Virus record (IMG/VR): IMGVR_UViG_3300042256_000013 | Span: 64,001-128,000 of that record | Direction: 5' to 3' (one strand) | Origin: a virus | Lineage: Duplodnaviria > Heunggongvirae > Uroviricota > Caudoviricetes | DNA length: 64,000 bases | In this document: positions 3,896-46,360 of the stretch, piece by piece | Layout of the letters: each line of letters begins with the position of its first letter | Numbering within the stretch: position 1 is the stretch's first letter | The notes under the pieces: model-generated | Seen by the model: only the letters and a program-made list of their open reading frames with translations | What the model was told of the DNA's origin: nothing | The model's database searches: none | Position numbers and translations under genes: made by a program

Positions 3896-3917
3896 AATAT
3901 GTACCTTAAAAAATTAG

Positions 3918-3990
3918 TACCCCGTGCTGGATTCGAACCAGCGACACTCCCATTAAAAGTGGGATGCTCTACCAACTGAGCTAACGAGGC
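3918..3990 (-). tRNA. tRNA-Lys(TTT)
   Basis: TCCCA-CTTTTAA-TGGGA; CTA instead of CCA. Confidence 0.95.
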
Positions 3991-8780: not shown

Positions 8781-8855
8781 TAGCGGAACCAGCGGGAATC
8801 GAACCCGCCTCTCATCAGTGACAGTGATGTATACTAACCGATATACGATGGCTCC
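8781..8855 (-). tRNA. tRNA-Asp(GTC)
   Basis: CATCA-CTGTCAC-TGATG; ends G-CTA. Confidence 0.93.
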
Positions 8856-12327: not shown

Positions 12328-12383
12328 TAGAATCTATTGTTTTTTTCTATATCCGAGAAGTTTTTAATTGCTGTTAGATTCTA
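12328..12383 (-). ncRNA. CAGCA-module RNA, stand-alone
   Basis: TAGAATCTA-ACAGCAA...AAACAA-TAGATTCTA. Confidence 0.7.
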
Positions 12384-12507: not shown

Positions 12508-12620
12508 GGAATTTATTTCTTTTTGAGGCGGCTGCTCTCCCACTGAGCTACAGTACAAGTACTGGCAGGACTCGAACCTGCGACATGCTGCGTGATAGAA
12601 GTTAGTTGCTGTTAAATTCC
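12508..12620 (-). ncRNA. Circularly permuted tRNA mimic (YrlA/Y-RNA-like)
   Basis: GGAATTT-AACAGCAA...T arm GCAGG-TTCGAGT-CCTGC, loop-closed acceptor CAGTAC-TT-GTACTG, D arm GCTC-AGTGGGA-GAGC, ...AAATTCC. Confidence 0.85.
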
Positions 12621-12638
12621 AAATTTGTTACTACCGCA

Positions 12639-15026: not shown

Positions 15027-15085
15027 TAGAATCTATATCTTTGTTTTCACCAATTGAATAAGAGTATAGTTGCTGTTAGATTCTA
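15027..15085 (-). ncRNA. CAGCA-module RNA, stand-alone
   Basis: TAGAATCTA-ACAGCAA...TAGATTCTA. Confidence 0.7.
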
Positions 15086-15087
15086 TG

Positions 15088-15207
15088 CGACGAGTGGTGG
15101 ATTCGAACCACCGACCTGGCCATTAAAAGTGGATGAAGTATAGTTGCTGCAAAATTACATACTGTAATTTGGGGGTTCTACCTGCTCTACCACTGAGCTA
15201 ACTCGTC
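15088..15207 (-). ncRNA. tRNA-Lys(TTT)-like RNA with ~48-nt CAGCA-module insert in anticodon stem
   Basis: GACGAGT/ACTCGTC acceptor, D and T arms; GG-[insert with AAATTAC/GTAATTT-TGCAGCAA]-CCA-CTTTTAA-TGGCC. Confidence 0.85.
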
Positions 15208-15214
15208 ATTTGTT

Positions 15215-15307
15215 TGGAGGAAGATGTGGGATTCGAACCCACGGGGGGCTGTTAACCCCCGCCTGATTTCAAGTCAGGTACAATAAGCCAAGCTCTGCCA
15301 ACCTTCC
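15215..15307 (-). tRNA. tRNA-Ser(TGA)
   Basis: CCTGA-CTTGAAA-TCAGG, long variable arm, T-CCA. Confidence 0.93.
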
Positions 15308-15337
15308 AAAAAAGTACTTCTCAGTACTTTGTATACT

Positions 15338-15491
15338 GGATTCTCATTAATTGAGCAACTATCTAGCACGGCTCAATATAACTAATTACTATCTCCCTAG
15401 TCACCAGGTGGATACGAAGGGAGTTTTACTTCCGAGTATCCAATCTCATTTATGATTGATTTTAAGATTTTATTGTTTGCTGTCAGAATCC
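15338..15491 (-). ncRNA. CAGCA-module RNA with large non-tRNA cargo
   Basis: GGATTCT-GACAGCAA...AGAATCC enclosing GGATAC/GTATCC and TTGAGC/GCTCAA helices. Confidence 0.65.
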
Positions 15492-15529
15492 GGTGCTAAT
15501 TCGGTATTAATTCGGTATTAATTAAAAAC

Positions 15530-15633
15530 AAGAATCGTTGTTTTCTATCCCTACAGCCAGTAGTTAATCGGAATCGAACCGAAGGTGTTTTTCGCCAATG
15601 AAATATAAGATTTATGTTTGCTGGACGATTCTT
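15530..15633 (-). ncRNA. Permuted, reduced tRNA mimic (YrlA-like)
   Basis: AAGAATCGT-CCAGCAA...TCGG-TTCGATT-CCGA...AAAACA-ACGATTCTT. Confidence 0.75.
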
Positions 15634-15634
15634 T

Positions 15635-15711
15635 TAGCGTTCCGTAGGGGACTTGAACCCCTAGACCCCACCTTGAAAGGGTGGTGACTTTACCAATTTG
15701 TCCAACGGAAC
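15635..15711 (-). tRNA. tRNA-Glu(TTC)
   Basis: CCACC-CTTTCAA-GGTGG. Confidence 0.93.
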
Positions 15712-15717
15712 TAATTG

Positions 15718-15870
15718 TTATTCAGGTTCTTTCAATGACCATTCGGCACTTTTATCGGTACTTTTGGTAACTTCAAAACCTAATTCGGACATTACTTCAT
15801 GAAGGTTATTGTTATCAATACCACCAAGGATACGACGAACAATTACCATGTTTTCTTCTGCTGTTGCCAT
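15718..15870 (-). CDS. Hypothetical protein
   Basis: Start MATAEEN. Confidence 0.6.
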   Translation of the reverse strand: MATAEENMVIVRRILGGIDNNNLHEVMSELGFEVTKSTDKSAEWSLKEPE

Positions 15871-15895
15871 TTTAATATCCTTTATTGAAGGAACT

Positions 15896-16011
15896 GAAAT
15901 CTTTGTTTTTCTAGCCCCATGCACAGCCTACATAGCAACTTGGCTGTTGCGGATTCGAACCGCATCGTTTTTTCGCATAAAAAATAATTGTTTTGTTTGC
16001 TGTAAGATTTC
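15896..16011 (-). ncRNA. Permuted tRNA mimic (YrlA-like)
   Basis: GAAATCTT-ACAGCAA...GCGG-TTCGAAT-CCGC, ACAGCC/GGCTGT, ...AAGATTTC. Confidence 0.75.
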
Positions 16012-16078
16012 GTGTTGCTAATACTTTTATTATACCACAAATATTTGAAACAAATCAAATATTTCTTAATTAAATTCA

Positions 16079-16200
16079 GGAATCTGTTTTTATCCAGCAC
16101 CAAGCTCCCACTATTTTAATAAGGCAGATGTTCGTGGGTGGGGATTCGAACCCCGTCGTCTTGTTTTCATCAAAAGGTTTAATTTTTGCTGTAAGATTCC
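16079..16200 (-). ncRNA. Permuted tRNA mimic (YrlA-like)
   Basis: GGAATCT-TACAGCAA...GGGG-TTCGAAT-CCCC, CCCAC/GTGGG, AGCTTGGTGCT, ...AGATTCC. Confidence 0.78.
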
Positions 16201-16217
16201 GCTGCCTTATGTTCTTT

Positions 16218-16246
16218 ATTATACCAGATTTTTTTCTTTCGTTTCA
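16218..16246 (-). promoter_or_regulatory. Class-II promoter
   Basis: TGAAACG-N16-TATAAT directly upstream of the ncRNA at 16200. Confidence 0.7.
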
Positions 16247-16666
16247 AATATTTTTCAAAACATCCGAAAGAAATTGTCCAGGCTCAAGTTCTATATAATC
16301 TGATTCATCATACTGTAATTCAAAGATGAAATCATCCCAATTTTCTTCAAGGTAAGTAATGAAGCTTTCGGGAGAACCACGTTCTCTATATCTCTCGATA
16401 TATTCTTCACCTAAATCAACTTCAGGATACACATTGGTATACTTCATACCAAGTGTTTGTAACAATTTTCTAACTGATTCATGAGTACTGATAAGTATAT
16501 ACTCATAACCATTATTCTCGGCATCAATAATAGCCTGAATATAATTCAATGGAAATGTTTTAATCTTACTGTAACCAGAACTATCTAAATCAATAACGTT
16601 ATCATTGTTCTGAACTACAGTACTTTTACCAATACCAGGGAAACCGCAAATAATCTTAGCTGCCAT
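16244..16666 (-). CDS. P-loop NTPase/kinase-like protein
   Basis: IICGFPGIGKS Walker A. Confidence 0.75.
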   Translation of the reverse strand: MAAKIICGFPGIGKSTVVQNNDNVIDLDSSGYSKIKTFPLNYIQAIIDAENNGYEYILISTHESVRKLLQTLGMKYTNVYPEVDLGEEYIERYRERGSPESFITYLEENWDDFIFELQYDESDYIELEPGQFLSDVLKNI

Positions 16667-17339
16667 ACTTCTCTAATTTGTTCCTGAACTGTACACCATC
16701 TTCAGTGTACGTTTGTGCCAATTTTGGATTTTGTGTGTTGTTAACATCGTTGATCATAATTGGTACGAAGGATACACGAATGAATGTGCGAACCTTACCA
16801 GTACTTACAATAGGACGACGATGAAGAATGTAAGGATCTAAACAATAAACCACATTCTCTTTACAACTTTTCACTTCAGACGTGATGTTCTTCTCAAGGA
16901 AGTAATTCACGTTGTGTTTCAGTGGATCGAAATCTTCAGGAAACTTAACAGAAACATTGGTGTATTCTGTCGGAATACGATTAGTCCAAATGTAGTTCTG
17001 TTCAGGAACATGAGCGACCTTAGTACTGAAACCATCAACATGCCATTCGTCATCAGTTACTGATTTAACAACACCATGACGTACAGTAATGTAGCAGTAC
17101 TGTTTATCAGAATCAATCGCATTTTTCTGATGCGTAAGAGCTTCTACCAGTACTGGTGTTAACCAACGGAGATTATCAGGAAGAACCAGATTTTCACCAT
17201 CAGCACATACACACATACGTAAAATATATTGTTCATCGAAAGGACATACTACATGAACTTCCGATAATTCAATTGGTTCAACATTGTTTTCAAATTCACT
17301 TACAGAAACATTACGCTTTGCTCGTTCAATGATACTCAT
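16656..17339 (-). CDS. Putative 2OG-Fe(II) dioxygenase-fold protein
   Basis: WHVDG...LHRRP...RTFIRVSF (HxD...H...R pattern). Confidence 0.6.
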   Translation of the reverse strand: MSIIERAKRNVSVSEFENNVEPIELSEVHVVCPFDEQYILRMCVCADGENLVLPDNLRWLTPVLVEALTHQKNAIDSDKQYCYITVRHGVVKSVTDDEWHVDGFSTKVAHVPEQNYIWTNRIPTEYTNVSVKFPEDFDPLKHNVNYFLEKNITSEVKSCKENVVYCLDPYILHRRPIVSTGKVRTFIRVSFVPIMINDVNNTQNPKLAQTYTEDGVQFRNKLEKYGS

Positions 17340-17354
17340 GATGTACCTCTTATT

Positions 17355-17376
17355 TAAAATAGGGCATTGCTGCCCC
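17355..17376 (-). terminator. Rho-independent terminator
   Basis: GGGGCAGCAATGCCC followed by TATTTT. Confidence 0.55.
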
Positions 17377-17377
17377 G

Positions 17378-17860
17378 TTAGTCCAGTACTACTTCTTCGT
17401 CTGAGCTACGTTTAGTAGCTTTCTTTGGTGCATCAGGTGATTCCTGATTACCAGAAGTATTATCCAGAGATTTTTCAAGTTTCATAATACGCTTGAAAGT
17501 TTTAATGTCAGGTTTGTTACAAGCCCATTCTTTACTATCAGTTGCACCGTAACGATACAAATTCCCGTATGAATAGTACTTATTACCTACCCAAATGGAA
17601 CCTGCCTTTAAACCATTTTCTTTATCGATAAAGATAAGTTCTTTGGTTTCACGGCGAACAGTTAACAAGCCAGCTTCATACTTATCCATAAGAAGGTTCA
17701 GCTTAACTGTCGCTTCTTCATTATAAGTTAAAGATGACATTAAGAACTGAGCAGTTTTCAATCGTTCAGTACCCATAGATGTAGTTACAGCCAACATCCA
17801 AATAATGAACAACACCAAAACCGTCAGAATACCATATATTGCTATAGCAGTAATAGACAT
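17378..17860 (-). CDS. Membrane-anchored hypothetical protein
   Basis: 160 aa, N-terminal TM. Confidence 0.75.
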   Translation of the reverse strand: MSITAIAIYGILTVLVLFIIWMLAVTTSMGTERLKTAQFLMSSLTYNEEATVKLNLLMDKYEAGLLTVRRETKELIFIDKENGLKAGSIWVGNKYYSYGNLYRYGATDSKEWACNKPDIKTFKRIMKLEKSLDNTSGNQESPDAPKKATKRSSDEEVVLD

Positions 17861-17872
17861 TTTTCTCTCCAG

Positions 17873-18115
17873 TTACGAGTTAATTATTTCAGAAATAACC
17901 ACTTCTTTCAGATCACGGAAGTCCATTTTACGACCACGAATATCATAGATGAGGCTAGATTGCAATTGACGCAACTTAGCAAGATGCTTTGTTTCGTCTT
18001 TTGTTTTGTTCTCTATAGAATCAACTTCATCGATTTCAATCATAACCAATTTGAGTTGACTTGTCAAGAGTTCAATACGCTTATGTAGGTTTTTGAGTTC
18101 AGTAGCACTTTTCAT
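17873..18115 (-). CDS. Coiled-coil hypothetical protein
   Basis: 80 aa ORF. Confidence 0.7.
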   Translation of the reverse strand: MKSATELKNLHKRIELLTSQLKLVMIEIDEVDSIENKTKDETKHLAKLRQLQSSLIYDIRGRKMDFRDLKEVVISEIINS

Positions 18116-18179
18116 GATACGTATTTCCTTTTCACTTACTTAAAGATGCCGCTAACGATGTTAACGGCATTGGCTGGCA

Positions 18180-18395
18180 TTACTTGTGGTAACGTGCCTT
18201 GCTCTGAGCTTTGCGGATTTCGTGCAGTTCAGTCTGCAACGATTTCTTCCAGTCCAGAAGATGTGCATAGCAGATCTTAGACTTATCGCTGTTAGCGAAC
18301 GGAGCCAGCAGTGCATCTGCCTGAGCAATCTGGAACTGAATGTAGTTCACGTTGCGTTCTACTTCGCCAATATCAGTAATAGTATTTTTAGCCAT
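18180..18395 (-). CDS. Hypothetical protein
   Basis: 71 aa ORF. Confidence 0.7.
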   Translation of the reverse strand: MAKNTITDIGEVERNVNYIQFQIAQADALLAPFANSDKSKICYAHLLDWKKSLQTELHEIRKAQSKARYHK

Positions 18396-18484
18396 GTTTT
18401 TTAATGCCCTTTTCGTTATTCATTAGATAAGTACCTTCGAAGTGAAGTATACCTGATACGTTTTTTCATCCGTCGATGTAGTAC

Positions 18485-18513
18485 ATAGTACTGGAATCTG
18501 GCAGCCCTGTCAA
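18485..18513 (-). promoter_or_regulatory. sigma70-type promoter
   Basis: TTGACA-N17-TACTAT. Confidence 0.8.
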
Positions 18514-18521
18514 GGACTTTT

Positions 18522-19022
18522 TTACAGTTGAAGACCGTAGTCAAGGATTACTATTTCACCGTTAACATCTTCACCCATATTGTCAAACCCTACGTCATAC
18601 AGTATATCACAAATTTCATCCTGCGTCAAGCCGCTTTCTTTAAATTTGTTCGCGAAATTCGTGAATTTTACGTTTTTATTCGATTTAAGAAAGTATTCAA
18701 CTTTATCTGGATTGAACTGAATGTCAAATACAAGTTGATCAATCTTTTGCATAAAGTTTAAAGGAATATCATACATACAATTGTATGGAGTAACACGTTC
18801 CATTATTATACGCGTTTCGTTGCTACTGTCAACCAAAATTTTACACAACGGCAACTTAGAACCGTACTTAATATAAGTTTCCAATTCTCTTCGACATTGT
18901 TCTATACCCCAAGAAGACGTACCATCTTGATATTTGGCAACCTTTATTACCAAGTTATCGTTGATTTCATAAACTGTACGTGATACACCTTCATTTATGT
19001 ATTTAAAGGGTTCAGTTAACAT
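18522..19022 (-). CDS. Protein-kinase-like fold protein
   Basis: GVSRTVY...VIKVAK...E...NMG...ILDYGL. Confidence 0.6.
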   Translation of the reverse strand: MLTEPFKYINEGVSRTVYEINDNLVIKVAKYQDGTSSWGIEQCRRELETYIKYGSKLPLCKILVDSSNETRIIMERVTPYNCMYDIPLNFMQKIDQLVFDIQFNPDKVEYFLKSNKNVKFTNFANKFKESGLTQDEICDILYDVGFDNMGEDVNGEIVILDYGLQL

Positions 19023-19047
19023 GGAGTATTCTCTTATTATCTCAATT

Positions 19048-19071
19048 AAAAAGGAGAACCGAAGTTCTCCT
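19048..19071 (-). terminator. Rho-independent terminator
   Basis: AGGAGAAC-TTCG-GTTCTCCT-TTTT after the autotransporter gene. Confidence 0.85.
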
Positions 19072-19082
19072 GTTACGTAGTA

Positions 19083-20678
19083 TTACCACTCTACGCCTAC
19101 ACCAGCACCCCAAAGTACTTCAGACTGCGTGTTAGTACTGACGGATACTTTAGTGGTTACACTGTTAGTTACGCGAGCACTGAAGCCCACTGCAACTGCT
19201 TGTTCGCCATCATACCCACCGATACCAGCACCCACTGAGAAGTTACCATCACGAGTAACTTGTGGAATGTTAGCCATTGCACCTGCACCTGCGATACCAG
19301 CACTTGCTACTTTACGGTTATCACCGATACGTTTATCAATATCGTTGAAACGTTTGTTAGTACTTTGTTCCAGATTGGATACACGACCTTCGACAGTACC
19401 AATACGTTGAGTATTGCTGGTAATGCGTTCATCATGTTGTACCAACGTAGCATCGTTAGTATCGATACGGCTTGAAAGAACGCTATCTGCTTTTTGACGG
19501 GCAGTACTTTCATTTGCCAATTCGACTTTACTTGCTTTAGTTGCGATAACTTTATCCTGATTAGAATCAGTTACAGCCTGGGCAGCCTTGTTCTGGTCGA
19601 TGTTAGCTTTCAATGCAGTATCAGCAGAGATACGATTATAAGTTTCAGTACTGAGAGCCTTATCTTGTTTAGCGTCAGTTTTAGCCTGTTCCGCTTTATT
19701 CTGATCGATATTGTTCTTCAACGCAGTATCGGCATTAGCACGAGTTTTAGCTTCAGAATCAATATTGGATTGAAGTACTTTATCAGCGTCTTTACGTGCT
19801 GCGACTTCTTTATTCAGATCAGCTTTGTCAGCTTTAGTTACAGCAAGACCGACAATAGCGGCATCTTGTGCGGCATCATGAACAGCTTGCTTCACTTTAT
19901 CAACGGCATAGGTAGATTTATCTACTTTACCATCAATTGCAGCGTTTTGATTTGCATCAGTTACTGCCTGGTCTGCTTTGTTCTTGTCAATATTGGCCTG
20001 AAGTTCTTTGTCACCATTTTGGCGGTCAGATACTTCTTTATCCAATGCTGCTTGGTCTGCTTTACCAGAGATCGCTTTATCTTGCTCATCATTTTTGGCT
20101 TCTACACCATCCAAACGAGTTGCATTATCAATGCTGCGAGCATCAGTTACTGCTAACTGATCGTTGGTTTCACGAATTGCACCTTCAGTTGCATCGGCAC
20201 GATGCTCCAGATCGGTTGCACGGTCATTAGCTGTTTGTGCAGCATCTTGAACGGCATTGATATGGTCATCTTGATCTTTGTCAACCGCAGCTTGTTTGTC
20301 GTCTTGCTTTTGTTGACTTTCGTCAAGTTGTTGTTGAGTAATACCCGAACCACCATTTGAACCACCACCTGGATTAGTAGGTGTTGTTGGAACAATTGGT
20401 TTCCATGAATTGCTTCCGTCACTTTCACAATAACCGTCAAATTGGTTATTTTCAATAGCAGTTTTCCAGCTATTGGCGACTTGCCATGCTTTAGTAGCAG
20501 TTTCATTGCTTGCTACAGCAGCATTGACGTTATTCACAAAGCCATTCCAATTACCTTGGGAATCGTTTTGTTTATACGAATTGTAATTTGAACACGCAGA
20601 GGTTAATTCCCCCTTTGCGTCAGCAAACACATTGCTGGACAATGCCAACAACGCTACCGCTATCAAAATCTTTTTCAT
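19083..20678 (-). CDS. YadA-family trimeric autotransporter adhesin
   Basis: Signal MKKILIAVALLALSSNVFA, coiled-coil stalk, C-terminal anchor AGIAGAGAMANIPQ...VGAGIGGYDGEQAVAVG...GAGVGVEW. Confidence 0.92.
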   Translation of the reverse strand: MKKILIAVALLALSSNVFADAKGELTSACSNYNSYKQNDSQGNWNGFVNNVNAAVASNETATKAWQVANSWKTAIENNQFDGYCESDGSNSWKPIVPTTPTNPGGGSNGGSGITQQQLDESQQKQDDKQAAVDKDQDDHINAVQDAAQTANDRATDLEHRADATEGAIRETNDQLAVTDARSIDNATRLDGVEAKNDEQDKAISGKADQAALDKEVSDRQNGDKELQANIDKNKADQAVTDANQNAAIDGKVDKSTYAVDKVKQAVHDAAQDAAIVGLAVTKADKADLNKEVAARKDADKVLQSNIDSEAKTRANADTALKNNIDQNKAEQAKTDAKQDKALSTETYNRISADTALKANIDQNKAAQAVTDSNQDKVIATKASKVELANESTARQKADSVLSSRIDTNDATLVQHDERITSNTQRIGTVEGRVSNLEQSTNKRFNDIDKRIGDNRKVASAGIAGAGAMANIPQVTRDGNFSVGAGIGGYDGEQAVAVGFSARVTNSVTTKVSVSTNTQSEVLWGAGVGVEW

Positions 20679-20856
20679 TTTTTCACCCTTGAGGTAAATT
20701 GAAGTTTGAACTACATTTAAACCAGTCTCACTGGCCTTGAACAACATAGTACAGGAACGCTACGAGACAGTCAAGTACTTTTTAGCTGTTTTTTTACGAT
20801 TTTCTCGAACCTACCATAAATATAGTAATATTTACAAACTCTTACCGGAGGTTCGA

Positions 20857-21552
20857 ATGAACAAAAATATTTCAAAAGAAGAGTTAGAATCACTTATTAA
20901 AGAATCTAATTCTATTGTTGAGGTTTTCACTAAATTAAAATTATCAAATCTCGATTCAAGTAATCATTATAGAATTTTTAGAGAACTTGTTCAAAAATTT
21001 AATATTGATTGTTCACACTTTACTCGTGGTTCCAAAGTGAATAGAACATATGTTGCTAAAAGAGAAATATCTGAATATCTTGAAAATAAATTTCCAATAC
21101 AATCTAATAAGCTCAAAAAGAGACTATTAGCTGAAAATATATTGGAACATAAATGTTCAGTCTGTAATAATGATACTTGGATGAATTCACCTATCCCTAT
21201 CGAATTAGATCATATAGATGGAAATTCAAGTAACAATAACTTAAGTAATCTTAGATTACTATGTCCAAATTGTCATGCTCAAACTGATAACTATTGTGGT
21301 AAAAATATCAAAAAGGGTAAAAAGAATCAAAAACAATTCATTAAACCACCTAAAGAAATCAAAGAAAAGGAACCATATATTAGATCTAAAAAGTGTTCTT
21401 TGTCAGATGAAGAAATATACAGTACTTTTATTTCTAATAACAAAAACTATACACATACCGGAAAAGCTTTAGGAATTTCTGATAATGCTGTACGTAAAAG
21501 AATTAAAAACATAGTTGGTGGGAATAGTCGGACTCGAACCGACACGGATTAA
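20857..21552 (+). mobile_element. Free-standing HNH homing endonuclease gene
   Basis: GGAGG RBS then ATG at 20857; CSVC...IELDHIDGNSSNNNLSNLRLLCPNCH; only plus-strand gene. Confidence 0.9.
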
Positions 21553-21601
21553 ACCGCCACATTTTGAGTGTGGTGCGTACTACCAATTTCGCCATATTCC
21601 C
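21516..21601 (-). tRNA. tRNA-Leu(CAA)
   Basis: CCACA-CTCAAAA-TGTGG, long variable arm, CCA. Confidence 0.95.
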
Positions 21602-21606
21602 AAATT

Positions 21607-21636
21607 AAAAAGCCCTTTATCAAAGGGCTTTTTTTT
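21607..21636. terminator. Bidirectional terminator
   Basis: AAAAAGCCCTTT-ATC-AAAGGGCTTTTTTTT. Confidence 0.85.
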
Positions 21637-21638
21637 AT

Positions 21639-22013
21639 TTACAGTACCTGAATTTTCGTAATATGAAGACGATCAGCCGAAATCTCAATATTAGTATGTT
21701 CAGATACATATTCAGCCAGTTTAGGCAGAATTGATTCTTCAGTCAGTTGACCATTTGAGTAATGATACAGGTTCGCCGTAAAGTGCTCATTTGGTTCTGA
21801 GACAAAGTTGTACTCCACGTATACCGCGTTAGTACCTTCTGGTACTTTACCATCTGCTTCTGCAATGATCTGCTGAACGGACTTACCAACAGTAGTTGGT
21901 GAATACCAGATGATAGCAGTGATCATACCAGCAAAGATTGCCAACGGAATTTGACCGAAAGAGAACAGAATAATAGCAATGGCCAGGAAAAGTACTTCGA
22001 AGAATGGTTTCAT
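21639..22013 (-). CDS. Membrane protein
   Basis: 124 aa, two N-terminal TM segments. Confidence 0.75.
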   Translation of the reverse strand: MKPFFEVLFLAIAIILFSFGQIPLAIFAGMITAIIWYSPTTVGKSVQQIIAEADGKVPEGTNAVYVEYNFVSEPNEHFTANLYHYSNGQLTEESILPKLAEYVSEHTNIEISADRLHITKIQVL

Positions 22014-22162
22014 GTTTGTTTCCTATTAATTAGGTATTCAATAAAGCATCCAGCGATAAACACTATGATGCCGACAAATGCAATTATAACACTCTTTGTA
22101 ACTATCGTCAACAACGCAATGATAATAATAATTGCAATTAAAATTTCGTAGAAGTATTTCAT
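22010..22162 (-). CDS. Small membrane protein
   Basis: Start MKYFYEIL, 50 aa. Confidence 0.65.
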   Translation of the reverse strand: MKYFYEILIAIIIIIALLTIVTKSVIIAFVGIIVFIAGCFIEYLINRKQT

Positions 22163-22175
22163 ACCCCACCCCCAT

Positions 22176-22204
22176 ATGATAGCGGGGTGTTGGCATTCTG
22201 TCAA
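22176..22204 (-). promoter_or_regulatory. sigma70-type promoter
   Basis: TTGACA-N17-TATCAT. Confidence 0.75.
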
Positions 22205-22225
22205 GCGTTTCCCGCTGATTTTTTC

Positions 22226-22855
22226 TTAGTAATAACCTGATACGTTGAACATTGTGCCGTTCGCATCAAAGTACGTTACTTCGTCAATGCTACCAGACGC
22301 AGCAAACTGATTGTCTGCTGTATGGTCGCCCTGACCTTCGAAACGTACATCAATACCTTCAATACTGAATGAACCGCAATAACCATCAACAATAATAGGA
22401 ATTGCTGCTGATGGTGCATAGAGATCTTCGTTATTAGGTATTTCGTATTTAGTACCGTCATTTCCAATAATAATTAGCACTTCTTCAGTACCGTCAATTA
22501 CAGTACCGGATTTCATTTGACGGTCAACGGAGTACGTCCGTTGTACTTCATTAATGAAATGGATATTAGTACCAACAAGTGGAATTCCAGTTTCTTCATC
22601 CATGTTAGTACTGTTCCAGTCGTCATCATTCATTAAGAATGGTGCACGGTGCCAATCATCTTCATCCATCCATGCCAACCCAATACTGATACCCTCAATA
22701 ATACGGGAGATCAGTTCTTCGTTTTGAGGAACATTTTGGATGCTAAAAGTTTCATTACTGTAACCATCAGCATCGCCATGCATGAATTCAACTTTAACAC
22801 GTAATGTGTTTTTTGGATTTGTTGATGGTACTGCTGGTGTAAGCTTAATTGCCAT
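22226..22855 (-). CDS. Hypothetical protein (FMHGD family)
   Basis: VEFMHGDADG...VTYFDANG shared with 34623..35030. Confidence 0.8.
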   Translation of the reverse strand: MAIKLTPAVPSTNPKNTLRVKVEFMHGDADGYSNETFSIQNVPQNEELISRIIEGISIGLAWMDEDDWHRAPFLMNDDDWNSTNMDEETGIPLVGTNIHFINEVQRTYSVDRQMKSGTVIDGTEEVLIIIGNDGTKYEIPNNEDLYAPSAAIPIIVDGYCGSFSIEGIDVRFEGQGDHTADNQFAASGSIDEVTYFDANGTMFNVSGYY

Positions 22856-23105
22856 TAGGTAATACCTTCTTAGCGGAGTTAATTACATTTTCGACAACAT
22901 CACCGATTACTTTGTCCAATTTAGACATTTCACCTGGTTGATAATGATATTTTTTGTAACGATCATATGTAGTCGGATTTTCCGATTTAGATGATTGTTC
23001 ACGTGCAACAGCAGGGTCAACCATAGTTACATCAGTACTGACGTAATCTTTAAAATCTTGAACCGTAGCTTTGATAATACGTTTAAGTTCATCTGCGATA
23101 TACAT
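22845..23105 (-). CDS. Hypothetical protein
   Basis: 86 aa, GAGGA RBS. Confidence 0.75.
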   Translation of the reverse strand: MYIADELKRIIKATVQDFKDYVSTDVTMVDPAVAREQSSKSENPTTYDRYKKYHYQPGEMSKLDKVIGDVVENVINSAKKVLPNGN

Positions 23106-23125
23106 AATACATCCTCATTTTTTTG

Positions 23126-23242
23126 CGGTGAGTGCAGGAATCGAACCTACGACGACGGCGTGACAGGCAATAAGTGTATGCTGTTAGATTCAGTACTGGA
23201 ATCCATTTTATAAACGCTATTTTACCACTAAACTAACTCACC
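23126..23242 (-). ncRNA. tRNA-Asp(GTC)-like RNA with ~46-nt CAGCA-module insert
   Basis: GGTGAGT/ACTCACC acceptor; GCG-[..GGATTC-CAGTACT-GAATCT-AACAGCA..]-GC-CTGTCAC-GCCGT; T arm GTAGG-TTCGATT-CCTGC. Confidence 0.85.
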
Positions 23243-23248
23243 AGATTT

Positions 23249-23605
23249 TTAAGTGCGATTAGGACGTGAGTTTTTGATTAACTCAACACCCGCAGAAGTA
23301 CAACGTTCAATTTGAGCGTTATACAGTTTCTCTACAACATCTTTATCAGAACTATGTAGATAGATTTGTTTCAGTTTCGGAAAAGCATTACGCTTCAGAC
23401 GGAGAGTTACCATCAAAAGCAAATCAGCCCCCGTATGGGTACGATCCCCCAGGAAGTTATCAAAGTGCAGTACTTCAACTTCTTCACTATTATCGAAAAT
23501 GAAGTTCCTTGCTTCCCACCACTCTTTCAGCCAAATAATACCTTCTGCTTGTTCAGCCGTCAAATGGTTTTCAGGATTACGAATATCATCTACGTAAATT
23601 TTCAT
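23249..23605 (-). CDS. Cyclic-phosphate-processing Receiver-like domain protein, paralog 1
   Basis: MKIYVDDIRNP...LHFDNFLG...TGADL...IYLHSSD pattern. Confidence 0.7.
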   Translation of the reverse strand: MKIYVDDIRNPENHLTAEQAEGIIWLKEWWEARNFIFDNSEEVEVLHFDNFLGDRTHTGADLLLMVTLRLKRNAFPKLKQIYLHSSDKDVVEKLYNAQIERCTSAGVELIKNSRPNRT

Positions 23606-23970
23606 TAGTAGTTGTTCCTCTGACTGTTATTGATTAATTCAACGCCAGCTTGTGCAAGTTCTTCAGAGAAGTTTTGAATCAATCCTTCAACTGTATCAGT
23701 ATCAGATGAATGCAAATAGATCTTTTTCAGATTTACCCATTCTTCTTTACCGCCCCACATACAATCACCAGATACCATATGGAACAAATCAGTACCAGTT
23801 AGTGTTGGTTCATCCATGTAGTGGTCGAAATGGATTACTTCAATAGAAGCAGCATTTTCAATTAAGAAGCGTTTGGCCTCCCACCATTCTTTAATCCATA
23901 CAATCCCTTCTGATTCTTCAGCAGAAAGATAACGGGCTGGATCACGAATATCATCAATATAAACTTTCAT
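23605..23970 (-). CDS. Cyclic-phosphate-processing Receiver-like domain protein, paralog 2
   Basis: MKVYIDDIRDP...IHFDHYM...TGTDL...IYLHSSD. Confidence 0.7.
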   Translation of the reverse strand: MKVYIDDIRDPARYLSAEESEGIVWIKEWWEAKRFLIENAASIEVIHFDHYMDEPTLTGTDLFHMVSGDCMWGGKEEWVNLKKIYLHSSDTDTVEGLIQNFSEELAQAGVELINNSQRNNY

Positions 23971-23971
23971 A

Positions 23972-24286
23972 TTAATGTCCACCATCAACAGTTAAATGTT
24001 TACCACCTGAAGTGGCAATAAAACGGTCAACACCGCAACCACGTGGATCAATTTCAGAAACTTTGAAATCAGCTTCACCGAGATCTACGTAAGTCGTAGT
24101 ACCGAAAGTACGGTCTACCCGTAATTCATACACATGGTTTTCCTGAAGTTCCTGAACACCATTCGCCGAAAAACATTTTGGTACTATATGACCAATAATG
24201 ATACCACCAGGCATAACCTGGATACGTGCAGTAATAGCCATTTCTGTACCCTCATTCGCGACAATTGAAAACGGTATCATCTTCAT
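23972..24286 (-). CDS. Hypothetical protein
   Basis: Likely start MKMIPF. Confidence 0.6.
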   Translation of the reverse strand: MKMIPFSIVANEGTEMAITARIQVMPGGIIIGHIVPKCFSANGVQELQENHVYELRVDRTFGTTTYVDLGEADFKVSEIDPRGCGVDRFIATSGGKHLTVDGGH

Positions 24287-24614: not shown

Positions 24615-24643
24615 ATAATATCATGATTATTTTTTTCTGTCAA
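24615..24643 (-). promoter_or_regulatory. sigma70-type promoter
   Basis: TTGACA-N17-TATTAT. Confidence 0.8.
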
Positions 24644-24653
24644 GGAAAATTTG

Positions 24654-24775
24654 TGCAGGGGGATGGAATCGAACCACCGACACGGAGTTTTACTTAGAAG
24701 AAGATAAATGCTGTTAGAATCTTAGTACTAGATTCAATGATTTCTCTCCTGCTCTACCAACTGAGCTACCCCTGC
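24654..24775 (-). ncRNA. tRNA-like RNA (Phe-like body) with CAGCA-module insert
   Basis: GCAGGGG/CCCCTGC, GCTC-AGTTGGTA-GAGC, GGAG..GAATCT-AGTACTA-AGATTC-TAACAGCA..CTCC, GGTGG-TTCGATT-CCATC; anticodon not callable. Confidence 0.82.
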
Positions 24776-25101: not shown

Positions 25102-25213
25102 TGGAGAGGGCTGGATTCGAACCAGCGTTACGTTCTATGAATGAAATTTATGGATGCCGTAAGATTCCATCTGGAATCGCTTTTCGTGTCCTGGGCCGCT
25201 AGACGACCTCTCC
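25102..25213 (-). ncRNA. tRNA-like RNA (Glu-type D arm) with CGGCA-module insert
   Basis: GGAGAGG/CCTCTCC, GTC-TAGCGGCCCAG-GAC, GATTCC-AGAT-GGAATC-TTACGGCA, GCTGG-TTCGAAT-CCAGC. Confidence 0.82.
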
Positions 25214-31763: not shown

Positions 31764-31873
31764 TGCTAAGAACAGGACTCGAACCTGTAAGGAAACCTCA
31801 CGGTACTTCCCATGTCCTATTGTCGCGATTCGCTATCGTCAGACACTACGTTTACCAATTCCGTCATCTTAAC
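31764..31873 (-). ncRNA. Leu-type tRNA-like RNA with 25-nt expanded anticodon loop
   Basis: GTTAAGA/TCTTAGC, ACG-GAATTGGTAAA-CGT, GTGTC/GACAT stem, long variable arm, ACAGG-TTCGAGT-CCTGT. Confidence 0.75.
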
Positions 31874-46041: not shown

Positions 46042-46164
46042 TAGTTGGGAATCAAGGAATCGAACCTTATCTCACGGCTCCCTATGCAATTGTATTGGTT
46101 GCTGTGAAATTCCTGTTGCAAGAATTTATGTTATAACGTTGTGCTGCCATTACACCAATTCCCG
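46042..46164 (-). ncRNA. tRNA-like RNA with CAGCA-module insert
   Basis: CGGGAAT/ATTCCCA (C-A at 1-72), GTG-TAATGGCAG-CAC, AAATTCTTG/CAGGAATTT-CACAGCAA, TAAGG-TTCGATT-CCTTG. Confidence 0.8.
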
Positions 46165-46169
46165 ATAAG

Positions 46170-46360
46170 TACCTTTCGGTACTGTTTAGTGTCATTCTGT
46201 TTCTTGGCTGACATGCCTCAGAAATAATTCGAGTACAGCTAGTGCTGTGTTTGAGCTAATAATAGCAACAGTTTAAGTCTGCTTGCTAAGACTTTATGAA
46301 TAATAGAAAAATAAGCATTACAGCTTTTCTACATAGTTACGAGGTAAGAACTTACCAAGT
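46170..46360 (-). ncRNA. Candidate multi-hairpin RNA
   Basis: GGTAAG/CTTACC, AAGTCT/AGACTT, AGTACC-GAAA-GGTACT; no credible ORF. Confidence 0.35.

What the first reader, a model, noticed from the sequence alone, without database searches (positions are those of the whole stretch)
15088..23242. tRNA-Lys(UUU) and tRNA-Asp(GUC) carry an intron-like module insert in the anticodon stem
Seen: deleting ~48 nt from 15088-15207 restores GGCCA-CTTTTAA-TGGCC. Deleting ~46 nt from 23126-23242 restores GCGGC-CTGTCAC-GCCGT. The insert lies in the 5' strand of the anticodon stem and is the loop-closed permutation of the module. Normal Lys(UUU) and Asp(GUC) genes are also present (3918, 8781). Established: tRNA-Lys(UUU) is the target of PrrC-type anticodon nucleases. 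Inference: either chargeable decoys that display an anticodon next to a protein-binding tag, or a new type of removable insert. They look like intermediates between tRNA and Y RNA.
Basis: partly seen in the sequence, partly recalled or inferred. Interest (0 to 1): 0.85.

Follow-up and report, generated by a model that had tools for sequence, protein, structure and literature searches.

The report
Module-interrupted tRNA genes in jumbo phage
A giant (Rak2-like) bacteriophage, and many other large phages, carry otherwise perfect tRNA genes that are interrupted in the anticodon stem by a conserved ~45-nt RNA module also found on the phage's Y-RNA-like mimics, which points to an undescribed way of processing or tagging tRNAs in bacterial viruses.

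Summary
The window (a 371-kb Rak2/GAP32-like jumbo phage) holds five, not two, tRNA genes with a 39-50 nt insert in the 5' strand of the anticodon stem: 15088-15207 (Lys UUU), 23126-23242 (Asp GUC), 24654-24775, 25102-25213 and ~46045-46164. Removing the insert in silico gives 72- and 71-nt sequences whose minimum-energy folds restore the anticodon arm. Orthologues in Mimasvirus and Eneladusvirus phages keep the split stem by compensatory changes (always 5 bp in total), keep the insert hairpin by covariation, and keep a single-stranded R-CAGCAA motif. A pattern scan found the same design in unrelated large phages, in Lys, Glu, Pro, Gly and other tRNAs. In two of those contigs it is the only tRNA-Lys(UUU) gene. 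There is no bulge-helix-bulge motif, no splicing endonuclease, no ribozyme match, no Ro and no RtcB. The phage does encode Rnl1/Rnl2 ligases and two cREC genes next to gene 2. I narrowly favour a protein-dependent intervening sequence (0.42) over a retained "tag" that makes a Y-RNA-like tRNA mimic or decoy (0.38). Lak-phage "enigmatic tRNA introns" are the nearest precedent but differ.

The parts
15088..15207 (-). Gene 1: tRNA-Lys(UUU) with insert. 5' part 15207-15181, insert 15180-15133 (48 nt), 3' part 15132-15088. Anticodon UUU at 15127-15125.
   Evidence: Rfam tRNA 47.2 bits; sequence; own model R1 131.9 bits; orthologues and covariation
15133..15180 (-). Insert of gene 1: linker UAGAACCCCC, hairpin AAAUUAC/GUAAUUU (15170-15152), motif CAGCAAC (15149-15143), AU-rich linker.
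23126..23242 (-). Gene 2: tRNA-Asp(GUC) with insert. Insert 23214-23169 (46 nt), hairpin ~23203-23187, CAGCA 23183-23179, anticodon GUC 23164-23162.
   Evidence: Rfam tRNA 43.6 bits; sequence; R1 72.5 bits; orthologues read UUC in XbC2, Kaldavass and L009
24654..24775 (-). Gene 3: tRNA-like gene with the same module (~24746-24703; CAGCA 24713-24709) but no canonical anticodon stem-loop.
   Evidence: Rfam tRNA 47.1 bits; R1 90.5 bits. Orthologues with the insert are in BF, Yen9-04 and L031; orthologues without it are in Kaldavass, XbC2 and L009.
25102..25213 (-). Gene 4: tRNA-Glu-derived gene with module (insert 25184-25146; CGGCA 25159-25155). Stem is CG|TTC/GAACG and the loop is AUUCAUA.
   Evidence: GAP32, CBB and BF orthologues have the canonical Glu loop AUUUCAC.
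46045..46164 (-). Gene 5: tRNA with module (insert 46136-46088; CAGCA 46104-46100). Stem is ACG|GC/GCCGT, loop AUAGGGA (anticodon AGG). A terminator-type hairpin plus U run follows (seen by eye in the alignment).
   Evidence: (48.6 bits). It is 95-98% identical across two genera.
15029..15083 (-). Stand-alone 'open' module 4 nt after the 3' end of gene 1 (GAATCT-AACAGCAAC...TAGATTC).
   Evidence: conserved in XbC2, Kaldavass and GAP32
12508..12625 (-). YrlA-like permuted tRNA mimic closed by the same module in open form (GGAATTT-AACAGCAAC...AAATTCC).
   Evidence: Rfam YrlA 43.3 bits, below the gathering score of 69; model positions 24-84 only
23249..23988 (-). Two tandem cREC_REC (PF20274) genes directly upstream of gene 2.
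   Evidence: Pfam E 6.7e-11 and 4.8e-9; the same arrangement is found in GAP32, CBB, BF and pEa50
3917..3990 (-). Uninterrupted tRNA-Lys(UUU).
8783..8855 (-). Uninterrupted tRNA-Asp(GUC).

Best explanation
These are genuine, selectively maintained tRNA genes that carry a dedicated 39-55 nt RNA module in the 5' strand of the anticodon stem, after nt 28, 29 or 30. In the transcript the module must project as the third arm of a three-way junction. The two stem pieces (2-3 bp plus 3-2 bp, always 5 bp) pair with an uninterrupted 3' strand. The module consists of an A-rich linker that usually starts UA, a 5-9 bp hairpin of variable sequence, a single-stranded R-CAGCAA motif, and an AU-rich linker. 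I read it as a sequence-specific handle for a trans-acting factor; the same handle occurs in open form on the phage's YrlA-like RNAs and leaders. Favoured mechanism: it is a protein-dependent intervening sequence. The factor cuts at the two linker/stem junctions. The exon ends stay aligned as a nick inside a duplex, splinted by nt 39-43. The ends are healed (cREC, kinase/phosphatase) and sealed by a phage nick-sealing RNA ligase (Rnl2 type), yielding ordinary 72/71-nt tRNAs. Shown: gene anatomy, conservation, covariation, distribution, and absence of known splicing signals. Inferred: transcription, the factor, excision and ligation.
For: Full-length tRNA model matches with a single insert. In-silico excision restores the anticodon arm and gives a full cloverleaf MFE for gene 1. 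The split stem is kept by double changes: 27:43 CG6/GC6; 29:41 AU5/CG5/GC1; 30:40 CG9/GC2; 31:39 AU7/CG2/UA2. At least 17 different complementary stems, always 5 bp, occur across phages. Anticodon loops are 7 nt with U33 and R37, and from my recall of E. coli tRNAs they match the isoacceptor: CUUUUAA Lys, AUUUCAC Glu, CUGUCAC Asp, UUUGGGU Pro, AUUCCAA Gly. The insert sits at the same structural site in non-orthologous tRNAs of many identities, often in tandem arrays (L024 has four in a row, L019 three), as spreading introns do. In G002, whose array otherwise pairs both purine-ending anticodons (Gln, Glu, Arg, Leu), Lys has only CUU plus the interrupted UUU gene. G004 has no other Lys gene. There is a presence/absence polymorphism at gene 3. 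The genome encodes one Rnl1-like ligase, two Rnl2-family ligases and two cREC genes beside gene 2. The cREC family is predicted to be a 2',3'-cyclic phosphodiesterase linked to RNA ligases (PMC7824862).
Against: No endonuclease candidate was found: no EndA domain, no bulge-helix-bulge pairing (and by hand), and no Rfam ribozyme or intron match. The same module occurs where splicing makes little sense, on leaders and YrlA-like RNAs. Several copies keep the module and tRNA body but have degenerate anticodon arms: gene 3, CBB copy 1 with a 10-nt loop, and gene 4 in the window clade. The insert is as conserved as the exons: 0.91 against 0.82/0.92 in gene 5, and the CAGCAAC block is 0.77, equal to the T arm. 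This phage has uninterrupted Lys, Asp, Glu and Pro tRNAs too. cREC was found in only 1 of 5 unrelated phages that carry the insert. No shared protein was found in their tRNA arrays. No RNA data were available.
Confidence: 0.42

Rival explanations
1. The insert is never removed. The ~120-nt RNA is the functional species: a tRNA (or tRNA mimic) with a protein-binding tag. It would be the non-permuted sibling of the phage's YrlA-like RNAs. It would act as a decoy or sponge for anticodon nucleases or tRNA-binding enzymes, or as a tether that brings a factor to tRNA-recognising machinery.
For: The module is shared with permuted YrlA-like RNAs, and cutting the hairpin loop while closing the acceptor converts one topology into the other. 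Both keep the 2-bp upper anticodon stem. The insert sequence is as conserved as the tRNA body. Copies with degenerate anticodon arms are still conserved: gene 4 is 95% identical between the window and Kaldavass, and the gene 3 family persists. Each interrupted tRNA in this phage has an uninterrupted twin. In Rak2-like phages the loops are mostly Lys(UUU) and Glu(UUC), which are classic anticodon-nuclease targets (my knowledge; PMC10264068 for phage tRNAs and nucleases).
Against: In other phages the insert sits in tRNAs of many identities (Pro, Gly, Met-like, Ile, Ser-like) and can be the only Lys(UUU) gene. That fits working tRNAs better than decoys. No Ro/TROVE gene is present, and the module is unlike the YrlA Ro-binding helix. 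The thermodynamic model disfavours the unspliced three-way junction for gene 2 (-16 against an MFE of -28 kcal/mol).
Confidence: 0.38
2. The insert is retained and the tRNA still decodes on the ribosome, as an 'armoured' tRNA that host anticodon nucleases cannot cleave.
For: Canonical anticodon loops and sole-copy status in some phages.
Against: From my recollection of 70S structures, the backbone of nt 28-30 contacts the 30S head in the P site, so a 45-nt arm there should clash. This was not tested here. Copies with degenerate loops argue against decoding as the common function.
Confidence: 0.07
3. These are dead tRNA genes disrupted by a mobile repeat (MITE-like), or the inverted repeat acts at the DNA level as an operator or recombination site.
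For: The repeat family is abundant in the region. One locus shows presence/absence of the insert.
Against: Compensatory evolution occurs in every helix, including the split stem and the insert hairpin, across two genera and in unrelated phages. Copies within one genome are diverged, not near-identical. Hairpin arms change sequence but stay complementary between phages, and open modules pair across 40-110 nt of structured cargo. Both point to RNA-level pairing.
Confidence: 0.06

Closest known systems
'Enigmatic' tRNA introns of Lak megaphages (Devoto et al. 2019; PMC6784885, preprint 10.1101/356790)
   Same: Large phages with tRNA arrays. tRNA genes are too long because of short conserved inserts. 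There are no self-splicing signatures, presence/absence polymorphism occurs between relatives, and the mechanism is unknown.
   Different: Lak inserts were placed by eukaryote-mode tRNAscan at the canonical 37/38 site; the one entry shown in the stored part of their Table S6 spans 93 nt, and one type contains a tRNA-like sequence. That stored part contains no CAGCAA. Here the insert is 39-55 nt, lies in the 5' strand of the anticodon stem, and has a defined hairpin plus R-CAGCAA architecture shared with non-tRNA RNAs.
Archaeal non-canonical tRNA introns, spliced by EndA at bulge-helix-bulge motifs (review PMC4090602)
   Same: Short protein-spliced introns that can lie in the anticodon stem and spread among tRNA genes at equivalent sites. 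The exons restore a normal stem.
   Different: No BHB or relaxed hBH can be drawn, no EndA domain is in the genome, and the host is bacterial.
YrlA / bacterial Y RNAs (Rfam RF02553; Chen et al. 2014, PMC4201824)
   Same: A tRNA-like domain is joined through the anticodon-stem position to a protein-binding stem module. Neighbouring phage RNAs match the YrlA tRNA-like core.
   Different: The genes studied here have normal, not permuted, tRNA order and keep an anticodon stem-loop. The module is unlike the Ro-binding helix, and no Ro/TROVE gene is present.
Group I introns in bacterial tRNA genes (my knowledge)
   Same: Bacterial-world tRNA genes interrupted in the anticodon arm.
   Different: Group I introns are >200 nt, self-splicing, and lie in the anticodon loop. 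No Rfam intron model matches here.
T4 tRNA-Lys break-repair (PrrC cleavage, Pnkp healing, Rnl1 sealing; my knowledge)
   Same: Phage heal-and-seal enzymes acting on the anticodon arm of tRNA-Lys(UUU). This phage has Rnl1-like and Rnl2-like ligases.
   Different: That system repairs damage in the loop of host tRNA. Here the gene itself is interrupted in the stem, in many tRNA species.

Membership tests
tRNA (Rfam RF00005) | Acceptor, D, anticodon and T arms in order, with the conserved D- and T-loop sequences GG and TTCRA present | tested here: met
   Hits span all 71 model positions at 47.2, 43.6 and 47.1 bits (gathering score 29) for genes 1-3, with one insert each. Genes 4 and 5 are found only by my model R1 (56.2 and 48.6 bits).
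tRNA (Rfam RF00005) | Contiguous 5-bp anticodon stem and length of 70-95 nt | tested here: not met
   The stem is split 2+3 or 3+2 by 39-50 nt. The genes are 112-122 nt and ARAGORN misses them.
Archaeal/eukaryal protein-spliced tRNA introns | Bulge-helix-bulge (or hBH) motif at the exon-intron junctions | tested here: not met
   RNAalifold on 12 orthologues finds no pairing of the insert flanks with exons. Manual search found none.
Archaeal/eukaryal protein-spliced tRNA introns | Splicing endonuclease (tRNA_int_endo, PF01974) available | tested here: not met
   No match in the 371-kb phage genome, while the search found it in archaeal control genomes. The host was not tested.
Archaeal/eukaryal protein-spliced tRNA introns | Removal of the insert restores a canonical tRNA | tested here: met
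   In-silico excision gives a 72-nt full cloverleaf for gene 1 and a 71-nt fold with acceptor, anticodon and T arms for gene 2. Stems always total 5 bp.
Self-splicing introns / small ribozymes | Match to a group I/II intron or self-cleaving ribozyme model | tested here: not met
   No such Rfam hit at E<=1-5 in or around the inserts.
YrlA / Y RNA (RF02553) | Permuted order: T arm, then closed acceptor, then D arm | tested here: not met
   Genes 1-5 have normal tRNA order. Only the neighbouring RNA at 12531-12588 shows the permuted order (43.3 bits, below the gathering score of 69).
YrlA / Y RNA (RF02553) | Ro-binding terminal helix and a Ro60/TROVE partner gene | tested here: not met
   The module does not align to YrlA positions 1-23/85-114. 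There is no TROVE gene in the genome.
Lak-phage tRNA introns | Insert at the 37/38 loop site with the same sequence family | tested here: not met
   The site here is 28/29-30/31. CAGCAA is absent from the stored part of their Table S6.

The most novel reading that the evidence does not exclude
Large bacteriophages possess a protein-dependent tRNA splicing/processing system that is unrelated to archaeal EndA/BHB splicing. A hairpin plus R-CAGCAA cassette marks RNA for cutting at a three-way junction. The resulting nick in the anticodon-stem duplex would be the natural substrate of phage Rnl2-type nick-sealing ligases, with cREC healing the ends. The same cassette, opened and combined with duplication, gave rise to the phage's permuted Y-RNA-like tRNA mimics.
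Probability: 0.33. Interest if true: 0.9.

Novelty: new variant of a known kind. Interest (0 to 1): 0.75.

Why it matters
tRNA genes of bacteria and their viruses are textbook-uninterrupted, apart from rare group I introns. Here a defined non-ribozyme insert class sits at one structural site of many tRNA species across diverse large phages. Annotation pipelines currently call these genes at random: tRNA-Phe, tRNA-Val, Pseudo, Undet, a 'membrane protein' CDS, or nothing.

If the insert is excised, this would be the first protein-dependent tRNA splicing in the bacterial world. It would also offer a natural substrate for phage Rnl2, whose role in phage I recall as unknown.

If the insert is retained, it defines a new family of tagged tRNA mimics. 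It would also show, in one genome, a stepwise route from tRNA to Y-RNA-like molecules.

Either way it bears on how phages equip or protect their translation supply against tRNA-targeting defences. Cultivated relatives (GAP32, CBB, BF, fHe-Yen9-04) make the question directly testable.

Tried and rejected

2. BHB or other exon-insert pairing: none found (and manually).

3. Known RNA families for the insert: none found. A 27.8-bit YrlA hit across tRNA-Ser and gene 1 is an artefact of two adjacent tRNAs.

4. cREC as an obligatory partner: it was found in 1 of 5 unrelated insert-bearing phages, and it is absent from the complete 363-kb G005. Rnl2 exceeded its cut-off in 1 of 5. Four of those records are incomplete, so this is weak either way.

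5. Shared protein in the tRNA arrays of unrelated phages: tblastn of 330 window ORFs gave only one hit, a plus-strand ORF at 20737-21552, which I read as an antisense artefact of the adhesin gene.

6. Hfq (ARN)n reading of AACAGCAAC: dropped, because gene 4 has ACGGCAU and gene 1 has UGCAGCAAC.

7. Pairing of the A-rich linker with the anticodon: it works for Lys and Glu but not for Asp, Pro or Gly, so it was dropped.

8. Resemblance to Dictyostelium Class I RNA: 20 bits, E 0.44 in a 761-nt search, and not reported in the whole-window search. I treat it as chance or convergence.

9. Single-sequence MFE folding does not recover the split stem. The comparative data do.

Full report
**Context.** The window is bases 64001-128000 of a 371,104-bp IMG/VR phage genome with terminal repeats. 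Its closest public relatives are Xanthomonas phage XbC2 and Erwinia phage Kaldavass (about 84-87% identity). More distant relatives are GAP32 and CBB (Mimasvirus) and BF, pEa_SNUABM and fHe-Yen9 (Eneladusvirus). These are Rak2-like jumbo phages. All tRNA genes lie on the minus strand.

**Observation.**
- ARAGORN finds 25 tRNAs but none at the reported sites.
- Rfam's tRNA model finds three extra, unusually long matches: 15088-15207 (47.2 bits), 23126-23242 (43.6 bits) and 24654-24775 (47.1 bits). Each covers all 71 model positions, with a ~57-63 nt unaligned block in the anticodon arm.
- Read directly, gene 1 is GG|48 nt|CCA-CTTTTAA-TGGCC and gene 2 is GCG|46 nt|GC-CTGTCAC-GCCGT.
- Deleting the inserts in silico gives a 72-nt RNA whose minimum-energy fold is a full cloverleaf. 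It also gives a 71-nt RNA that folds with acceptor, anticodon and T arms; its weak D stem is not predicted.
- Uninterrupted Lys(UUU) and Asp(GUC) genes exist at 3917-3990 and 8783-8855.
- A crude scan, a closed-module scan of the whole genome and my covariance model add two more members: 25102-25213 (tRNA-Glu-like body, CG|39 nt|TTC) and ~46045-46164 (ACG|49 nt|GC). The window therefore holds five such genes.

**The module.**
- Each insert has four parts: an A-rich linker, a hairpin, a single-stranded R-CAGCA(A/U) motif (CGGCA in gene 4), and an AU-rich linker.
- The core GAATCTAACAGCA occurs 16 times on the minus strand, against 2 expected.
- Elsewhere it is 'open': 5'-G(G)AATCT-AACAGCAAC-cargo-AGATTC(C)-3'. 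The cargo is either ~30 nt of A-rich RNA or a T arm / permuted tRNA-like domain.
- The RNA at about 12508-12625 matches the tRNA-like core of Rfam YrlA (43.3 bits, E 3e-8 in the local search). That is below the gathering score of 69 and covers model positions 24-84 only.
- In the interrupted tRNAs the two arms are joined by a loop. The genes are therefore topological permutations of those mimics, and both keep the 2-bp upper anticodon stem.

**Conservation.**
- Orthologues of gene 1 and of the gene at the position of gene 2 exist in XbC2, Kaldavass, an IMG/VR relative (L009), GAP32, CBB, BF, pEa50 and Yen9-03/04.
- GenBank labels them tRNA-Lys, tRNA-Phe(AAA/GAA), tRNA-OTHER, Pseudo, Undet, or even a 'membrane protein' CDS.
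- On a structure-blind MAFFT alignment of 12 Lys-type genes, 97.3% of cells pair and 16 of 28 pairs have changes on both sides. The covariation score is 0.538, against 0.19 in shuffles (0/500) and at most 0.126 when partners are slid.
- The split anticodon stem itself covaries: 27:43 CG6/GC6; 29:41 AU5/CG5/GC1; 30:40 CG9/GC2; 31:39 AU7/CG2/UA2. The insert hairpin does too, in 4 of 7 pairs.
- RNAalifold independently returns the acceptor, D, insert hairpin, lower anticodon stem and T arm. It finds no pairing between insert flanks and exons, so there is no bulge-helix-bulge motif.
- The single-stranded CAGCAAC block is as conserved as the T arm (0.77).
- In gene 5 the insert is 0.91 identical, against 0.82/0.92 for the exons and 0.57-0.68 for the flanks. 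Gene 5 is 95-98% identical between genera whose surrounding DNA is about 75% identical.

**Anticodons.**
- At the position of gene 2 the loop reads Lys UUU (GAP32, CBB, BF, pEa50), Ile GAU (Yen9), Glu UUC (XbC2, Kaldavass, L009) and Asp GUC (window).
- Gene 4 has the canonical Glu loop AUUUCAC in GAP32, CBB and BF, and AUUCAAC (UCA) in Yen9-04. In the window clade the loops are degenerate or 8 nt.
- The gene 3 family mostly lacks a canonical lower stem. Its orthologues in BF, Yen9-04 and L031 carry the insert, whereas Kaldavass, XbC2 and L009 lack about 45 nt at exactly that place. The most parsimonious reading is one loss of the insert.

**Wider distribution.**
- An exact-pattern scan of IMG/VR (D-arm...CAGCAA...CTTTTAA) returned 18 stretches. 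Three are false and the rest are tRNAs.
- Eight of the tRNA hits lie in contigs of unrelated size (217, 195, 109, 94, 363, 47, 27 and 23 kb).
- In those contigs the hairpin sequence is different, but the layout, the 'UA...' start, the R-CAGCAA motif and a complementary 5-bp split stem recur: ACG|GG, CG|TGC, TC|CGG, CG|GTA, CAG|GC, CG|AGC.
- My model R1 and Rfam then showed several interrupted tRNAs per phage, often in tandem (four in L024, three in L019). Their loops are typical of Pro (UUUGGGU), Gly (AUUCCAA), Met-like CAU and others.
- In G002 all Rfam tRNA matches on the 195-kb contig lie in one array, in which ARAGORN tRNAs plus a tmRNA. Gln, Glu, Arg and Leu each have both purine-ending anticodons, yet Lys has only CUU. 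The interrupted gene is the sole Lys(UUU).
- G004 has no other Lys gene. Both contigs are incomplete (estimated 53% and 23% complete).
- Other insert types also exist in these phages, such as loop inserts and a tRNA nested in a tRNA.

**Enzymes.**
- The phage has no TROVE/Ro, no RtcB and no tRNA-splicing endonuclease domain.
- It does have one Rnl1-like and two Rnl2-family RNA ligases.
- Two tandem cREC_REC genes lie directly upstream of gene 2, an arrangement kept in GAP32, CBB, BF and pEa50.
- cRec was proposed to be a 2',3'-cyclic phosphodiesterase linked to RNA ligases (PMC7824862).
- Among five unrelated insert-bearing phages only one has cREC, next to its tRNA array. No other protein is shared within the arrays.
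- Consensus scans show no terminator-like site on the minus strand next to genes 1-4, and they show sigma70-like promoters nearby. These genes are therefore probably co-transcribed with their neighbours.

**Interpretation.** I regard the following as secure:
- These are RNA-level, selectively maintained tRNA genes.
- The insert is a defined structured module.
- The anticodon stem is meant to form around it.

The fate of the module is open.
- For excision: exact restoration of a 5-bp stem, isoacceptor-specific loops, the same site in many tRNA identities, tandem arrays, sole-copy Lys(UUU) genes, the presence/absence polymorphism, and a heal-and-seal enzyme set. After excision the nick would lie inside a duplex, which (from my knowledge) is the substrate preference of Rnl2.
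- For retention: the module is shared with YrlA-like RNAs and leaders, the insert is as conserved as the exons, copies with degenerate anticodon arms are still conserved, and this phage has uninterrupted twins for each.
- Decoding with the arm retained seems unlikely. As I recall, nt 28-30 contact the 30S head in the P site.

I give 0.42 to a protein-dependent intervening sequence, 0.38 to a retained tag (mimic or decoy), 0.07 to a retained but decoding tRNA, and 0.06 to pseudogenes or a DNA-level element.

**Literature.**
- The only description of phage tRNA 'introns' I found is for Lak megaphages (10.1101/356790 and PMC6784885). Those inserts are placed at 37/38, the one shown spans 93 nt, and the stored part of their table has no CAGCAA.
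- The CBB genome paper counts 33 tRNAs, '31 functional', without comment on interrupted genes (PMC5259590).
- The YrlA paper (PMC4201824) does not cover this module.

I therefore class this as a new variant of a known but unexplained kind.

**Limits.**
- E-values from my model are rough.
- Four of the five unrelated phage records are incomplete.
- Statements on tRNA identity elements, ribosome contacts and Rnl2 specificity rest on my own knowledge.

Noticed in passing
window 31764-31873 (-): A 110-nt tRNA-like gene missed by ARAGORN and by Rfam at the gathering score. It has a long variable arm and an expanded anticodon region, and no CAGCAA module. Homologues are in CBB (annotated tRNA-Val GAC, 110 nt), BF and L009. 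Similar long RNAs occur in unrelated phages (L038, L050).
   Followed up: no
G001:C1:179142-179319 and 182398-182575; G004:C1:29452-29626 (loci L037, L040, L047): 175-178-nt 'tRNA inside a tRNA': an anticodon-loop insert that carries a second D arm and T arm. It recalls the Lak-phage tRNA-Thr intron said to encode a possible tRNA.
   Followed up: partly
window 12328-12381 (-): A short stand-alone module that matches Rfam Dictyostelium Class I RNA (RF01414) at 20 bits. Both have a terminal stem followed by ..UACAGCAA... This is probably chance or convergence.
   Followed up: partly
window 46045-46250 (-): Gene 5 is 95-98% identical to BF, GAP32, CBB and Yen9 although neighbouring DNA is about 75% identical. 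A second conserved element precedes it (~46170-46250), and an AAACCAGC...GCTGGTTTTTT terminator-type hairpin follows it.
   Followed up: partly
window 23249-23988 (-): Two tandem cREC_REC (PF20274) paralogues lie between interrupted tRNA genes. The arrangement is conserved in Mimasvirus and Eneladusvirus.
   Followed up: yes
L052 5119-5522 (G002) and L054 9202-9572 (G001): ARAGORN calls phage-encoded tmRNA genes inside the large tRNA arrays of two unrelated IMG/VR phages.
   Followed up: no
window 15152-15170, 23187-23203, 24722-24740: Hairpin loops of the modules in Rak2-like phages often contain AGTACT or a near copy. This is the palindrome an earlier finding reported as about 15-fold enriched genome-wide. 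Modules in other phages do not have it.
   Followed up: no
L013 15803-15875 (BF), L014 16267-16339, L010 17191-17263: In Eneladusvirus the slot of gene 1 holds a 73-nt tRNA with a Lys-like D arm, annotated tRNA-Ser(CGA), and no insert.
   Followed up: no
window 24615-24643 (-): A strong sigma70-like promoter (TTGACA-17-TATTAT with an extended TG) lies directly 3' of gene 3.
   Followed up: no
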